Source: a virus (taxonomy: Duplodnaviria; Caudoviricetes). Taken from it: a DNA stretch of 64,000 bases. Position 1 is the stretch's first letter. Each line of letters opens with the position of its first letter. The notes under the pieces are model-generated. The model had not been told where the DNA came from. It did no database searches and saw only the letters and a list, made by a program, of their open reading frames with translations. Positions 48,493 through 62,216 of this stretch are shown piece after piece. The stretch lies in the IMG/VR virus record IMGVR_UViG_3300005077_000489, positions 96,001-160,000 of that record; one strand, 5' to 3'. A program made the position numbers and the translations under genes.

Positions 48493-49037
48493 TGGCTGAA
48501 GTAATTATACAAAACTTAAGAAACTTAGATCAGATAGTCAGTGTTATGGTTACCATAAGAAAAACGATAATACCTGAACATAGTGGCGGCGGGACTATGT
48601 GGATTATAGAGGCATCAACAGACGAACCTGATGCTAATGGAGATTTAATTCCTCCGGTGCGGCTTTGGTCTTCTTCTTATGATACTCTTACAGAAGATAT
48701 AAATAGCATAATAAATGAATTGGCACAAAAAGTTAATTGGGATTATGAGCCAGATTATGAACCACCAGAGATAAAAAGTCATTGGCCTATTTCTGGTGCT
48801 ACTGGTATAAGTGTAGACACTAATATACGCATAAACATCACGGAGGACGCACCCTCTGCTGGCATAGACCTTAGTTCTATTCGTGTGCGGGTTAAGGGTT
48901 TCGATTTAACGAGCCAAGTAAGTATAGAAGGAGATGTCCGGTCTTGCTCAGTTTCGCTGACACCCGGTAGTAAATACCAGTCTGCCATCAATGATGACAA
49001 TTGGCAAGACTACGTCGAGGCAGAGGATGGACAGTAA
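48492..49037 (+). CDS. Adaptor-like protein with an incomplete C-terminal Ig-like (Big_5/SbsA-type) domain (181 aa)
   Basis: TAATG coupling with the upstream gene. PPEIKSHWP...NIRINITEDAPSAGIDLSSIRVRV is an SbsA-type Ig pattern. Confidence 0.65.
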   Translation: MAEVIIQNLRNLDQIVSVMVTIRKTIIPEHSGGGTMWIIEASTDEPDANGDLIPPVRLWSSSYDTLTEDINSIINELAQKVNWDYEPDYEPPEIKSHWPISGATGISVDTNIRINITEDAPSAGIDLSSIRVRVKGFDLTSQVSIEGDVRSCSVSLTPGSKYQSAINDDNWQDYVEAEDGQ

Positions 49038-59500: not shown

Positions 59501-62216
59501 TACTTATTACTATAATCCTGAATGTTCTATAAGCGGAACTAGGAATCTAGAGGTGATAACAACAAGTGGTGCTTGGTCTAGTATTTTAGGTAATAATTTA
59601 ACGGCACCCTTTGCTTATCAACTCATACCTTCTACTGTTTCTGGGTGGGATTTTATTACTAAAGTAAATAGTTCTTTTGAGGGAGATACTAGAGGACAAT
59701 ATTGTGGGCTGATGGCTGCTTCACCGACAAACAATACTAAATATACTCAATTGTTACTTTCTCCGAGTGGTGTTATACTTAGACCGACACCCACGTTGAG
59801 TGGTGTTTATATTAATACTGGTAAAAATAGTTATGACCCCATCTGGTTCAAAATAAATAAGAACAATAACGTATTAAAATATTACTGGTCTCTTACAGGT
59901 AGTTCCTGGACACAGTATACGTCCGTGAGTGGAGAGTCCTTTCTTAATACTAATAACTTAGCAGTTGGTCCTGTAGTTATATCAGAACGAGCGGGATATG
60001 ACACTGGGGTTACAAAAGCCTGGTTTGAGTTTGTAAAATTTACCACATCTGGGAATAATACCAGCGAAATAAATTTTAATAATGGTGGGTGGGAACTCCT
60101 GTTAGAAGGTTCATACCCTGTTAATTCTATAGATAATTCCGGTTATGTAAGCTATACCAAAGTGGCTGACTACAGATATATTTTGAACTATGAACCAAAA
60201 GAGTCATTCGTGGGTGGTGAACAGGTCTATGTTCGTACAGAATCCCACGATGTGCCTAGTTTTAAGATAGACTATTCTTATGGTAATGACCTACTATTAC
60301 TCAAAGGTGACGGGGTCCACGGTCAAGTTGTGGACAGTAATTATGGAGAATTGGGGGCTAGCGGTATTAATACTGCTTTTATATTTGACTCCTCTTCCTA
60401 TAACTTAAAAACATATTCCGTATCAGGGACTAATAGTGTAACTACTACGACCGGTATAAAATATTTGGGTAATGGTTCCTTTTATTTCCCCACTAATATT
60501 GGTCTTACTACTGAGGCTGTGCCCTATGATTTATCTACCACTAATTGGACATTTCATACATGGATCAATACTACGTCCACTTCGGGTAGTATACTATCCT
60601 TTCTGCCTATTACAGGTAATAGTTTTATATGTAAATATTATAGTAGTAGGTTGAACTTCTTAAGTGGGACTACCCTATTAGGTTCTGGAACTATCTTTAC
60701 CATCCCTACTGGTTGGAACCACCTCGGTGTGATGCGTAATAATGATTATCTATATGGTTATTTTAACGGTAAGATGGTTGCTTCCTCATACATCGGTAAT
60801 ATTACGTTGGCTACAGCATCGGGTAGCAGAATAAAATTGATGGGTGATAATATAACAGGTTATCTAGATATGGTTACGTTAAAAGATAGCCCTATATTCT
60901 CTGATACTCTAGTATCAACAAACGATCTGGATATTATTACTTCTTTTAATATTGCTAGTAGTCATGGTTTCGAGGTTACGTTGAATTGTGTAACAGACGA
61001 CCATGCCCCCGTGGTTGTACCAGTAGACCCAGTTCCTTACCAACAATTAATATGTCCTTCGTCGGGTATTGTTTTTGATATCTTAGACGATTTTACAGGT
61101 GTGAAGTGGACACAAACCAGTATTATAATAGATGGTATAACTGTTTGGTCTGGCGGGAACAACATGACAGACTACTTCGATGATAGAGGCACATTGATAT
61201 ATGAGGAGACAGGGGAGAAGGGCGGTGAGTGGGCAGATACGCAAGGAACCTCCTTCGAAAAATCAGACGGGATAAACCGATTACTATATCCTCCTGGGAC
61301 AGTATACAGTGGTAGTGGTGCTTGGGGACGCCGTTATACATATTATTTACCCGATGCAACACAAATTAATTATTTTGGTAGAACAATAAATATTACGATA
61401 TCTGGCACAGACGATTTTGGCTACCTATCATATTTAGATAGTTTTTACCCTAATGAATTTTCTTATGATTACGAATTCAGTTTCATTTATAACACTAATA
61501 TTCAATTCGCGAATTGTTTTATGGTTCCTGGAGAAAGTTATCGTATAGATGAAATAGAAGCTCGCGGGTGGAACTTCTGTACAGATATATTTGACAGTGA
61601 ATATCCGGTTACAGATATAGATGATGCGGAATGTTATATAAATTTCAACGACGGTATAAATCAGTTTACTGCATCAGGGACTTGGATGACAACATGGACG
61701 GGTGAGTTAGGTACTACATCTGGTGTCTTCCATCGAATACAATGGTATCCGGATAATCATTGGAACTGGGGTGGTAACAGGGCGATGTACTTAACTATAG
61801 AAGCACATAATACGCATCCATATTGTGATGTCTATAACACCGTAGAGTATATATATTACTATGGTAAAGAAATTTGGTGGTATCACACCGCGAGGCGTAA
61901 TGATTTAAAACAATACCCTCCTTTTGATTTGAACCATAAGTTACCAGTTCTAATAGGCATAAAGACACAGGACTTTATACCTGAAACATTTTTCAGGTCT
62001 TATCTGTTCTGGACGCATCCCGGTAAAACATATGATTTGGGAGTTACACTGAAAGCTATACCAAAACCGACGAAGGATTTAAAAGTCGGTATACTGGCAC
62101 ATAGTCATTACTTACAATATAGTGAGGATGTTGATGTAGAAATCTATTGTAAAGATTTAGATGGAAATGAAATAACATATACGTGGATTTTTACCACGGA
62201 AGATAAACCAAATTAA
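56538..62216 (+). CDS. Large fibre/adhesin-like protein with LamG, ConA-like, discoidin and Ig-like modules (1,892 aa)
   Basis: GLIAWHRF...LSFWLKP LamG; YKAFD...LYGSN...YTYYKIKIT discoidin; WTFHTWI...WNHLGVMR second LamG; SbsA-type Ig segments. No signal peptide. Confidence 0.8.
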   Translation: MDCTISGVITGSGTLTTSGTTVSGGCPSCSGSHYVYYTYAIPRECINATTTLFTSVSGLEQDYVLQTQQIQDTVGFGPIDIGEGLIAWHRFVESDGYYYDWSSNTYDAQALGNVINSEGRYGQGVRVGEYPHGCISAPIPTQSGSNYMLSFWLKPSVLLTSGNNTSFRLFESDTFYGDHFADSNDYNVLRPYKGWTLLNTTTTAVAGYNSTYLRFKGASNTNWFSGTWTASTIYFNIERNRDWDIETELLTNELIGDQAAGFIFFDRLSYVNYCSLIIDCDNNAVTTYDDLTPPMDGNTSPTPYIVAATSENSSSYAAYKAFDHSNDSYGWRSNTGLPAAIYFYFGIPIYVTHYRFRSVNAADSRGFPANFTLYGSNAASPSVSDDADWVQIDQRTSTSYPGQDGYTSWFAISSPSSYTYYKIKITSVSSDTFVWIGEVEFSEYEYTPATVSVLVQTDSFSYTVSSSITQDLLSTFKLGLVKRGNIITFRYKPYYANYWLDTIYEMDCSLWSNSMALGLQSRNPSGVSPEIYFDYLSFTRGLKPDNVGDEEAPGRLIISYNETDVYGEIGVRDDSRIWAQTTRSGHAFGTSTYNWEPDTWYLLQFGFAPDAAAGDYTWWVDATRENGLLVGSGTGGSSIYYNNVINYFDSYPMPASGVFTIDEVSHWSRWLTAEEILRMLNRVSQSAWLAVADYLYGNDSFLTAAVSVSGGYGLYSDVNHKDFYYHTQYQAPLLPQAEVTYNKISYRIQKEYKVVAARIDEFVLNIFRCSSGWITNMEECFNCANSSACLCDVRGGIAIYTLPFWGNQFNKLFHIISRQKYNYNNVLLIRIDTLTGQYSIMGYDLNSPYPTSLIPANNQRMIHPELLWQDEPNITIEISDFGGNLAEDRSRVWIKRENVGYNTFTKIDDFCFYEEDFKLLPTYSGSLGTTVSGNGWTIVNIDNTISCKVNDNFNSNVVLDYTDIVASGVEGSLTTSGLNDSLETIKNYTYYYNPECSISGTRNLEVITTSGAWSSILGNNLTAPFAYQLIPSTVSGWDFITKVNSSFEGDTRGQYCGLMAASPTNNTKYTQLLLSPSGVILRPTPTLSGVYINTGKNSYDPIWFKINKNNNVLKYYWSLTGSSWTQYTSVSGESFLNTNNLAVGPVVISERAGYDTGVTKAWFEFVKFTTSGNNTSEINFNNGGWELLLEGSYPVNSIDNSGYVSYTKVADYRYILNYEPKESFVGGEQVYVRTESHDVPSFKIDYSYGNDLLLLKGDGVHGQVVDSNYGELGASGINTAFIFDSSSYNLKTYSVSGTNSVTTTTGIKYLGNGSFYFPTNIGLTTEAVPYDLSTTNWTFHTWINTTSTSGSILSFLPITGNSFICKYYSSRLNFLSGTTLLGSGTIFTIPTGWNHLGVMRNNDYLYGYFNGKMVASSYIGNITLATASGSRIKLMGDNITGYLDMVTLKDSPIFSDTLVSTNDLDIITSFNIASSHGFEVTLNCVTDDHAPVVVPVDPVPYQQLICPSSGIVFDILDDFTGVKWTQTSIIIDGITVWSGGNNMTDYFDDRGTLIYEETGEKGGEWADTQGTSFEKSDGINRLLYPPGTVYSGSGAWGRRYTYYLPDATQINYFGRTINITISGTDDFGYLSYLDSFYPNEFSYDYEFSFIYNTNIQFANCFMVPGESYRIDEIEARGWNFCTDIFDSEYPVTDIDDAECYINFNDGINQFTASGTWMTTWTGELGTTSGVFHRIQWYPDNHWNWGGNRAMYLTIEAHNTHPYCDVYNTVEYIYYYGKEIWWYHTARRNDLKQYPPFDLNHKLPVLIGIKTQDFIPETFFRSYLFWTHPGKTYDLGVTLKAIPKPTKDLKVGILAHSHYLQYSEDVDVEIYCKDLDGNEITYTWIFTTEDKPN

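What the first reader, a model, noticed from the sequence alone, without database searches (positions are those of the whole stretch)
48762..62213. Split Ig-like domains across genes: possible donor-strand complementation in trans
Seen, using the complete SbsA-type Ig at 54869-55166 as template: two proteins end with only the N-terminal part of such a domain (181-aa, 48762-49037; 661-aa, 55178-55357). Both have clean stops followed by the next gene's RBS/start, so this is not a frameshift. The 1,892-aa protein ends with two orphan C-terminal parts: PPFDLNHKLPVLIGIKTQDF...SYLFWT (~61917-62020) and YLQYSEDVDVEIYCKDLDGNEITYTWIFTT (~62110-62205). Two orphan N-halves and two orphan C-halves match in number. 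Established: chaperone-usher pili polymerise by completing incomplete Ig folds with a partner's strand. Inference: this virus joins appendage subunits by fold complementation.
Basis: inference. Interest (0 to 1): 0.7.

Follow-up and report, generated by a model that had tools for sequence, protein, structure and literature searches.

The report
Split Ig domains joining phage tail proteins
Two tail proteins of this uncultured 211-kb phage end in the front part of an immunoglobulin-like domain and a third ends in two back parts; this three-protein set, conserved in many distant phages and fused into one chain in a few, probably snaps together by completing the broken folds, though binding was not tested.

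Summary
The 181-aa and 661-aa proteins end in truncated Big_5/SbsA-type Ig domains. On a 105-position profile of the complete domain they cover positions 1-74 and 1-59. The 1,892-aa protein ends in two C-terminal Ig fragments, tail_a (62-105) and tail_b (at least 73-105). The pieces tile the domain as 661+tail_a and 181+tail_b.

The truncations are conserved, not decay:
- 34 orthologues of the 181-aa protein stop at the same point.
- 75 of 150 representative relatives of the 661-aa protein end in the same half-domain, with a terminal P-[KI]-[IV]-Y-R motif.
- All 17 distant IMG/VR loci fetched carry the 661-type protein plus a tail_a+tail_b protein. That protein is often only about 205 aa.
- 12 of those 17 loci also show the 181-type protein.
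- Two proteins, P0205 and P0094, fuse the 661-type module and the tails in one chain.

AlphaFold2 models the acceptor half confidently (block pLDDT 85-91, last block 72). It leaves the highly conserved tails unfolded (block pLDDT 30-63).

Fold complementation in trans is therefore supported but indirect. The complex predictor was closed, so no inter-chain sandwich was tested. This scan noted the same layout in another genome (e1-5381316) and other split-Ig phage cases. I found no published description.

The parts
48492..49037 (+). 181-aa protein (acceptor 1): about 88-aa N-terminal domain plus truncated Ig
   Evidence: ORF. A family of 34 orthologues of 162-182 aa. Distant homologues of 161-193 aa in L007, L010, L011 and L013-L026.
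48756..49037 (+). Truncated Big_5-type Ig of the 181-aa protein (positions 1-74 of 105; strands A to E plus the E-F loop), then a short variable tail
   Evidence: Pfam Big_5 residues 89-163 on profile 2-80/105. hhalign 1-74, 98.2%. The end ...CSV.LTPGTKYQSA is conserved in close relatives. Distant ones end ...W.PP.RVY.TYD*.
53372..55357 (+). 661-aa protein (acceptor 2)
   Evidence: ORF. 66% identical to the 658-aa orthologue in L001, with an identical C-terminus YEYYSYPKIYRFK. 359 relatives at E<=0.001.
54857..55177 (+).
   Evidence: The profile of the complete Ig matches residues 500-602. In the AF2 model, pLDDT is 95-98 in the 10-residue blocks covering model residues 21-120. Ig-like sandwich, Z 10-11.6 to PorU and CopC domains.
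55178..55357 (+). Terminal truncated Ig of the 661-aa protein (positions 1-59 of 105), ending in the conserved P-K-I-Y-R-x-x stop
   Evidence: hhalign 97.8%. AF2 gives only four short strands, then coil, with block pLDDT 85-91 and 72 for the last block. 75 of 150 representative relatives end here within 6 aa. R177 is invariant and P173 and C132 are in at least 90% of 57 diverse sequences.
56538..62216 (+). 1,892-aa protein (donor): variable lectin-rich N-terminal body plus a conserved C-terminal anchor
   Evidence: 23 orthologues of 1,185-2,824 aa share the last 413 aa at 35-59% identity. The minimal form in other phages is a 205-220-aa protein made only of Ig2+tail_a+tail_b.
61485..61871 (+). 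Ig2, the complete Ig domain that precedes the tails (P0001 about 1650-1778)
   Evidence: AF2 strands at model residues 183-303, block pLDDT mostly 70-88. hhalign to the complete Ig 1-90, 93%.
61866..62021 (+). tail_a: orphan C-terminal Ig fragment (positions 62-105; strands E-F-G)
   Evidence: hhalign 95.7%, E 1e-8, with a 43-sequence donor alignment. AF2 gives a hairpin at model residues 329-353 with block pLDDT 48-63.
62022..62216 (+). tail_b: orphan C-terminal Ig fragment (the last 31 aa fall on positions 73-105, strands F-G; the preceding roughly 32 aa are unassigned)
   Evidence: hhalign 96.2%. AF2 pLDDT is below 50 for model residues 357-386, and the hairpin at 392-414 has block pLDDT of about 48-58. 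This is the most conserved stretch of the family (LQYSEDV, C, D.DGN invariant).

Best explanation
The 181-aa, 661-aa and 1,892-aa proteins form a three-protein junction in the tail-tip adhesion apparatus. It is held together by Ig-fold complementation in trans.

The 181-aa and 661-aa proteins each end in an Ig domain that lacks its last strands; these are the sockets. The last 115 or so residues of the 1,892-aa protein carry two tandem back parts of the same domain type; these are the plugs. Each plug inserts into one socket and restores a full beta-sandwich. By profile tiling the likeliest pairing is 661 with tail_a and 181 with tail_b.

The conserved core of the donor is Ig2+tail_a+tail_b. 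In smaller relatives this core is a free-standing protein of about 205 aa that would simply staple the two socket proteins together. In this jumbo phage the same staple carries a 1,650-aa lectin-rich body on its N-terminus, so the plug anchors a large adhesin to the tail.

Shown here: the truncations, their conservation, the tiling, the co-occurrence and the natural fusions. Inferred: physical binding, the strand pairing and the location in the virion.
For: (1) Conserved cut points.
- All 34 orthologues of the 181-aa protein are 162-182 aa, and the 20 aligned all end just after strand E.
- Homologues in far more distant phages also end there, with W.PP.RVY.TYD* or PTILYR*.
- 75 of 150 representative relatives of the 661-aa protein (174-1,049 aa, 22-65% identity in the module) end within 6 residues of the same half-domain, with the P-[KI]-[IV]-Y-R motif.

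(2) Tiling of the 105-position domain profile: 661 covers 1-59 and tail_a 62-105; 181 covers 1-74 and tail_b 73-105.

(3) Fusions.
- P0205 residues 689-870 match the whole 661-type module (99.95%). Residues 934-1090 match the donor C-terminus to its last residue (96%; HMMER E 3.7e-14).
- P0094 has the same layout.
- Both sit in the syntenic position, after a 181-like gene and a Big_1 gene.

(4) Co-occurrence.
- In 17 of 17 IMG/VR loci of another subfamily, a protein ending in tail_a+tail_b lies within 10 kb downstream of the 661-type gene. In 11 of the 17 loci it is a roughly 205-220-aa ORF starting close after the 661-type gene; in the four loci checked it starts 25-40 nt after the stop, behind its own ribosome-binding site.
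- A 181-type protein was detected upstream in 12 of the 17; in three of the five without one (L012, L015, L028) the contig ends within 5 kb upstream.
- L005 and L008 also carry such a donor.

(5) With one and the same alignment, AF2 folds Ig1 and Ig2 of the donor (block pLDDT mostly 70-94) but not the tails (30-63). Yet the tails are the most conserved part of the family. The acceptor half is modelled with block pLDDT 85-91 as four strands without a second half.

(6) The N-terminal bodies vary from 0 to about 2,600 aa while the C-terminal plug stays constant. This is the pattern expected of an attachment module.
Against: - No inter-chain model or experiment was obtained.
- Rosetta-stone fusion and synteny show association, not the mode of contact.
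- Strand assignment is ambiguous. The last strand of the 661 half resembles an E strand (V.I.P pattern) as much as C', and tail_b has about 32 unassigned residues, so the tiling could be partly fortuitous.
- tail_a plus tail_b together have about 7 predicted strands and might form a domain of their own that the shallow 25-sequence alignment failed to reveal.
- L007 carries a 181-type and a 661-type protein, but its donor homologue stops inside Ig2 and no tails were found on that 13.8-kb contig.
- No form of the 181-aa protein with a complete Ig was found that could show what the missing strands look like (weak evidence).
Confidence: 0.55

Rival explanations
1. The three proteins do form one complex, but not by completing Ig folds. 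The tails fold together, or with Ig2, into a self-contained C-terminal domain. The truncated Ig units are stable short variants whose conserved terminal peptides (PKIYR, PP.RVY) dock on a surface of a partner as linear motifs.
For: - Fusion and co-occurrence require only association.
- The terminal motifs are the most conserved residues of the acceptors (R177 invariant, P173 in at least 90%) and are predicted as coil, like docking peptides.
- tail_a+tail_b contain enough strands for a sandwich.
Against: - Both tails align specifically with the back part, and both acceptors with the front part, of the same domain family, with near-exact tiling.
- AF2 gave no confident self-contained fold for the tails, while it folded the neighbouring domains from the same alignment.
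Confidence: 0.27
2. The half-domains are completed by copies of the same protein. In a homo-oligomeric strand swap within a trimeric or hexameric tail component, the acceptor halves pair with each other and the donor tails pair among themselves.
For: Tail-tip proteins are usually trimers or hexamers (general knowledge). Nothing tested here excludes homotypic completion.
Against: - Two front halves cannot supply the missing F-G strands to each other.
- This reading does not explain the fused chains or the strict co-occurrence of two fronts and two backs.
Confidence: 0.1
3. The truncated domains are decayed remnants or annotation or assembly artefacts (a frameshift or premature stop) without a role in assembly.
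For: A single genome alone could not exclude this. The 181-aa ORF overlaps the next ORF by 11-47 nt.
Against: - The same ends occur in dozens of independent metagenomic assemblies at 22-71% identity.
- The termini are more conserved than the protein bodies.
- No continuation of the domain exists in other frames of the genome.
Confidence: 0.03

Closest known systems
Donor-strand complementation and exchange in chaperone-usher pili (Fim, Pap, Caf1); established knowledge
   Same: An Ig-like subunit is made with an incomplete sandwich. It becomes stable only when another chain supplies the missing strand or strands, and the joint holds an extracellular appendage together.
   Different: - In pili only the single G strand is missing. 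It comes from a periplasmic chaperone and then from an N-terminal extension of the next identical or similar subunit, which gives a polymer.
- Here two or more strands (F-G, or E-F-G) are missing.
- The donors are two tandem C-terminal fragments of a third protein, and the product is a defined hetero-complex.
- No Pfam chaperone or usher family was found in the proteins scanned.
- Assembly would occur in the host cytoplasm.
Donor-strand exchange fibres outside the chaperone-usher pathway: TasA of Bacillus subtilis (PMC9674648), archaic CupE pili (PMC10104325), type V pili of Bacteroidia (general knowledge)
   Same: They show that strand donation between beta-sandwich subunits recurs as an assembly principle in unrelated extracellular fibres.
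   Different: Those are homopolymers with single-strand donation. None is viral, and none uses a double plug that joins two different socket proteins.
Strand exchange ('handshake') between sheath subunits of contractile tails and type VI secretion systems (general knowledge)
   Same: Inter-chain beta-sheet completion is already known to hold phage tail parts together.
   Different: There the terminal strands augment a sheet of complete domains within a homopolymer. Here a recognisable domain family is cut into front and back parts encoded by different genes.
Nested carbohydrate-binding modules in 'evolved' Dit and Tal proteins of siphophage adhesion devices (PMC7291167, PMC9692632)
   Same: Tail-tip proteins downstream of the tape measure that carry lectin-type modules, variable bodies and constant attachment parts. 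In the fused forms Ig2 lies between the front half and tail_a, like a nested insert.
   Different: In those systems the host domain is continuous in one chain. I found no split of a domain between genes described there.
Other split-Ig cases noted by this scan (e1-5381316, same layout in another genome; e1-5350557, e1-5388176, e1-5370856, e1-3685180); AI notes, not publications
   Same: Phage fibre or tail proteins that end or begin with parts of one Ig-like domain, conserved cut points and occasional fused relatives.
   Different: Most describe neighbouring genes that each supply one piece in series. Here one protein carries two plugs for two separate sockets, and the genes are not adjacent in this genome (661 and 1,892 are separated by a 385-aa gene; 181 lies 7.5 kb upstream).

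Membership tests
Pfam PF13205 Big_5 (SbsA-type bacterial Ig-like domain) | Match to the family HMM above the gathering score | tested here: inconclusive
   181-aa protein: E 1.9e-4, 22.6 bits against a cut-off of 23.6, covering profile positions 2-80/105. The 661-aa and 1,892-aa proteins give no Pfam hit. 13 of 57 members of the 661-type module alignment hit Big_5 at E<=0.01, best 1.9e-5. These are a divergent branch of this Ig clan rather than clear members.
Pfam PF13205 Big_5 (SbsA-type bacterial Ig-like domain) | Seven-stranded Ig-like beta-sandwich fold | tested here: met
   For the complete copy in the 661-aa protein: AF2 pLDDT 95-98 in the 10-residue blocks covering model residues 21-120; Z 10-11.6 at rmsd 2.1-3.1 A over 90-105 residues to Ig-like domains of PorU and to CopC/PcoC.
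Donor-strand complementation systems of the chaperone-usher type | Subunit Ig fold that lacks C-terminal strand(s), leaving an open groove | tested here: met
   The 181 type covers positions 1-74 and the 661 type positions 1-59 of a 105-position profile. AF2 gives only four short strands for the 661 half. Groove geometry was not inspected because no coordinates were available.
Donor-strand complementation systems of the chaperone-usher type | The donor strand is an N-terminal extension of the next subunit, giving a polymer | tested here: not met
   The donors are two C-terminal fragments of a third protein. In minimal forms the donor protein has one Ig plus two tails. This gives a closed junction, not a polymer.
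Donor-strand complementation systems of the chaperone-usher type | Dedicated periplasmic chaperone and outer-membrane usher genes | tested here: not met
   Pfam and PHROG scans found no chaperone or usher family in the nine proteins of window 42-64 kb, the ten proteins of window 19.8-28.2 kb (PHROGs only) or ten proteins of locus L011. The element is a phage tail module.
Donor-strand complementation systems of the chaperone-usher type | Physical completion of the fold by the partner chain | not testable with these tools
Interacting pair by the gene-fusion ('Rosetta stone') criterion | Both separate proteins occur as parts of one chain in another genome | tested here: met
   P0205 (1,090 aa) and P0094 (587 aa) contain the 661-type module followed by Ig2+tail_a+tail_b. 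Both come from independent JGI metagenomes and sit in conserved synteny.

The most novel reading that the evidence does not exclude
A large, uncultured group of tailed phages (contigs of 24-545 kb) uses a standard double plug, Ig2+tail_a+tail_b, and two sockets, the 181-type and 661-type truncated Ig domains, as a universal connector in the tail tip. Ig-fold complementation between three different proteins, not surface docking, locks the junction. Because the plug is constant while its N-terminal body ranges from nothing to 2,600 aa, the system would work as a natural plug-and-socket mount for exchanging adhesins. I could not find such hetero-oligomeric donor-strand assembly described for any virus.
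Probability: 0.5. Interest if true: 0.75.

Novelty: new variant of a known kind. Interest (0 to 1): 0.62.

Why it matters
If the halves do complete each other, this would carry donor-strand-type assembly from bacterial pili and biofilm fibres into virus tails. The geometry would also be new: one protein with two plugs joining two different socket proteins.

It would explain how these phages hang adhesins of very different size on a constant tail core. It would give a simple sequence signature for finding partners among unannotated phage proteins: a protein ending in half an Ig with P-x-I-Y-R, and a protein ending in two back halves. It would also offer a compact natural split-domain pair for joining proteins.

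The claim is directly testable with three small constructs.

Tried and rejected
No verdict on binding exists.
- tblastn of the 661-aa protein against GenBank phages found no match.
- The viral-contig scans with the single 661-aa and 181-aa proteins found nothing usable. Alignments A2 and A5 were too diverse for pattern scans.
- PDB sequence searches with the A1 and A2 profiles gave only chance-level hits.
- Foldseek and VIA searches recognised only the complete Ig. The half-domain was barely tested: tandem-Ig hits span it only at rmsd above 12 A.
- PHROGs and Pfam gave no function for the neighbouring proteins here or in L011.
- A search for longer relatives of the 181-aa protein with a complete Ig found none (weak evidence).
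- A +1 frameshift fusion of the 181-aa ORF to the 458-aa ORF was considered and rejected. The tails after strand E vary in length and sequence among orthologues, and the downstream sequence has no F-G pattern.
- A conserved Cys in the 661 half (C132) and one in tail_b (C399) were considered as a possible inter-chain disulfide. This was dropped because the tail Cys is absent in L005, L008, P0205 and the A4-type donors while the acceptor Cys stays.
- Literature searches for donor-strand or fold complementation in phage tails returned nothing relevant.
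Full report
**Setting.** The window is part of a 211,229-bp phage contig. All large ORFs lie on the + strand. Earlier notes of this scan call the first giant ORF a tape measure and the 4,741-aa ORF a lectin-rich adhesin (unchecked leads). If so, the finding lies in the tail-tip or adhesion part of the structural operon. The genes concerned are:
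- 1,167 aa (44989-48492)
- 181 aa (48492-49037)
- 458 aa (48991 or 49027 to 50367)
- an IscB-like gene (50596-51822)
- 513 aa (51829-53370)
- 661 aa (53372-55357)
- 385 aa (55372-56529)
- 1,892 aa (56538-62216)
- 539 aa (62269-63888)

Pfam and PHROGs recognise almost nothing here beyond weak Ig (Big_5, Big_1) and discoidin hits.

- Pfam aligns residues 89-163 of the 181-aa protein to Big_5 positions 2-80 of 105.
- I built a profile of the complete Ig copy (residues 496-602 of the 661-aa protein) from 57 diverse relatives.
- Against it, the terminal 63 residues of the 661-aa protein align to positions 1-59 (97.8%).
- The 181-type Ig aligns to 1-74 (98.2%).
- Using a 43-sequence alignment of donor C-termini, tail_a (P0001 about 1777-1828) aligns to 62-105 (95.7%) and the last 31 residues of tail_b to 73-105 (96.2%).
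- Both truncated genes end in clean stops followed by the next gene's start signals.
- Across the whole genome only these three proteins carry such pieces.

**The cuts are conserved features, not damage.**
- The 181-aa protein belongs to a family of 34 proteins of 162-182 aa at 49-71% identity. The 20 that I aligned all end just after ...CSV.LTPGTKYQSA.
- Much more distant homologues (E 1e-17 to 1e-32) in other phage lineages end at the same structural point, with ...W.PP.RVY.TYD or ...PTILYR.
- An exhaustive search with the 661-aa protein found 359 relatives. Of the best 150 representatives, 75 (174-1,049 aa) carry 'complete Ig + half Ig' at their very C-terminus.
- These end in P-[KI]-[IV]-Y-R plus about two residues. 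In the 57-sequence alignment the Arg is invariant and the Pro and a Cys are present in at least 90%.
- The orthologue in L001 is 66% identical overall but identical in the last 13 residues.
- The donor's last 413 residues are shared by 23 orthologues of 1,185-2,824 aa. Its final 50 or so residues are nearly invariant.

**Folding.**
- With the 57-sequence alignment, AF2 models the 661 module at mean pLDDT 91.7. This gives a full sandwich followed by a unit with only four short strands and a coil tail (block pLDDT 85-91, last block 72).
- With the 25-sequence donor alignment, AF2 folds Ig1 and Ig2 (block pLDDT mostly 70-94). It leaves the last 120 or so residues at block pLDDT 30-63: two isolated hairpins and a 30-residue stretch below 50.
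- The best-conserved part of the donor is thus the part that does not fold alone.

**Fused relatives.**
- P0205 (1,090 aa) and P0094 (587 aa) contain the 661-type module followed in the same chain by Ig2, tail_a and tail_b up to the last residue.
- P0205 residues 689-870 match the A2 module end to end (99.95%). Residues 934-1090 match the donor C-terminus (96%; HMMER 897-1090, E 3.7e-14).
- Both lie in the conserved gene order after a 181-type gene and a Big_1 gene.
- In these chains Ig2 sits between the front half and tail_a. If tail_a completes the half-domain in cis, Ig2 is a nested insert.

**Co-occurrence.**
- A pattern scan of IMG/VR with another subfamily of the module returned 17 loci.
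- All 17 have a protein ending in tail_a+tail_b within 10 kb downstream of the 661-type gene.
- In 11 of the 17 it is a 205-220-aa ORF that starts close after the 661-type gene and consists only of Ig2+tail_a+tail_b. In the four loci checked it starts 25-40 nt after the 661-type stop, behind its own ribosome-binding site.
- A 181-type gene was detected upstream in 12 of the 17 loci. In three of the five without one (L012, L015, L028) the contig ends within 5 kb upstream.
- L005 and L008 show the same pairing.
- L007 is the one odd case: its donor homologue stops inside Ig2, and no tails were found on the short contig.

**Interpretation.**
- The data fit a junction of two sockets and one double plug.
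- By tiling, 661 (1-59) pairs with tail_a (62-105) and 181 (1-74) pairs with tail_b (73-105).
- The constant plug with a body of 0 to about 2,600 aa suggests that a small staple protein was elaborated into an anchored adhesin in jumbo phages.
- The pairing and the binding itself are inferred.
- The main rival (0.27) is that the proteins associate but the tails form their own domain while the conserved terminal peptides dock as linear motifs. Homotypic completion (0.10) and artefact (0.03) fit poorly.

**Comparison with known systems.**
- The principle is that of donor-strand complementation in chaperone-usher pili and of TasA or CupE fibres (PMC9674648, PMC10104325).
- The defining features of those systems are not met: an N-terminal single-strand donor, polymerisation, and a chaperone and usher. 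This works like them but is not a member.
- I found no paper describing a split Ig domain shared between phage tail proteins.
- This scan has noted the same layout in another genome (e1-5381316) and several other split-Ig phage cases. Those are unchecked AI notes and were used only as leads.

**Verdict.** I class it as a new variant of a known assembly principle, with interest 0.62.

Noticed in passing
window 50368-51822: A 408-aa IscB-like protein (Pfam RRXRR E 3e-60 plus HNH E 5e-11), preceded by a 228-nt non-coding stretch, lies between the paralogous 458-aa and 513-aa genes. The closest relative (L001/L003) has these two genes adjacent with no insert, so this is a recent mobile insertion into the structural operon. 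Earlier scan notes e1-5366534 and e1-5366544 describe it.
   Followed up: partly
window 48991-50367 and 51829-53370; also 55372-56529: The 458-aa and 513-aa proteins look like paralogues (shared GINFWS motif) and, like the 385-aa protein, end in weak Big_1/invasin-type Ig domains. A Big_1 protein always lies between the 181-type and 661-type genes in distant phages, so it probably belongs to the same complex.
   Followed up: partly
L014:10621-12051 (477-aa donor homologue): This donor carries a discoidin-like N-terminal part joined to the Ig2+tails core by a linker of about 180 residues made almost only of Ser with periodic Glu. It is an extreme low-complexity spacer.
   Followed up: no
L007 (ENA k141_149675), genes at 405-899, 5844-7610, 7629-11078, 11097-12278: Four consecutive structural proteins end in ...[IL]S* (RIS, CIS, FIS, RLS). 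The donor homologue stops inside Ig2, 18 nt in frame before the next ORF. This could be a conserved gene-end signal, or stop-codon read-through or recoding. It is unexplained.
   Followed up: no
L010:676-1548, 4313-5185, 6399-7574; L006:4565-5416: Several homing-endonuclease-type genes (HNH, NUMOD3, LAGLIDADG; Pfam marks from the collection, some faint) are interspersed in the same tail module of related phages. This parallels the IscB insertion here.
   Followed up: no
window 53372-55357 (661-aa protein): ESM Atlas neighbours of the C-terminal module are mostly labelled Bacteria, commonest Verrucomicrobiota. This is a possible hint to the host or to prophage copies.
   Followed up: no
window 44989-48492 and 56538-62216: The 1,167-aa and 1,892-aa proteins share a discoidin-type unit (YKAFDHS...YRFR; phrog_16348 and a PHROG 'tail protein' family phrog_17517). 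This fits a set of lectin-bearing adhesins around the junction.
   Followed up: no
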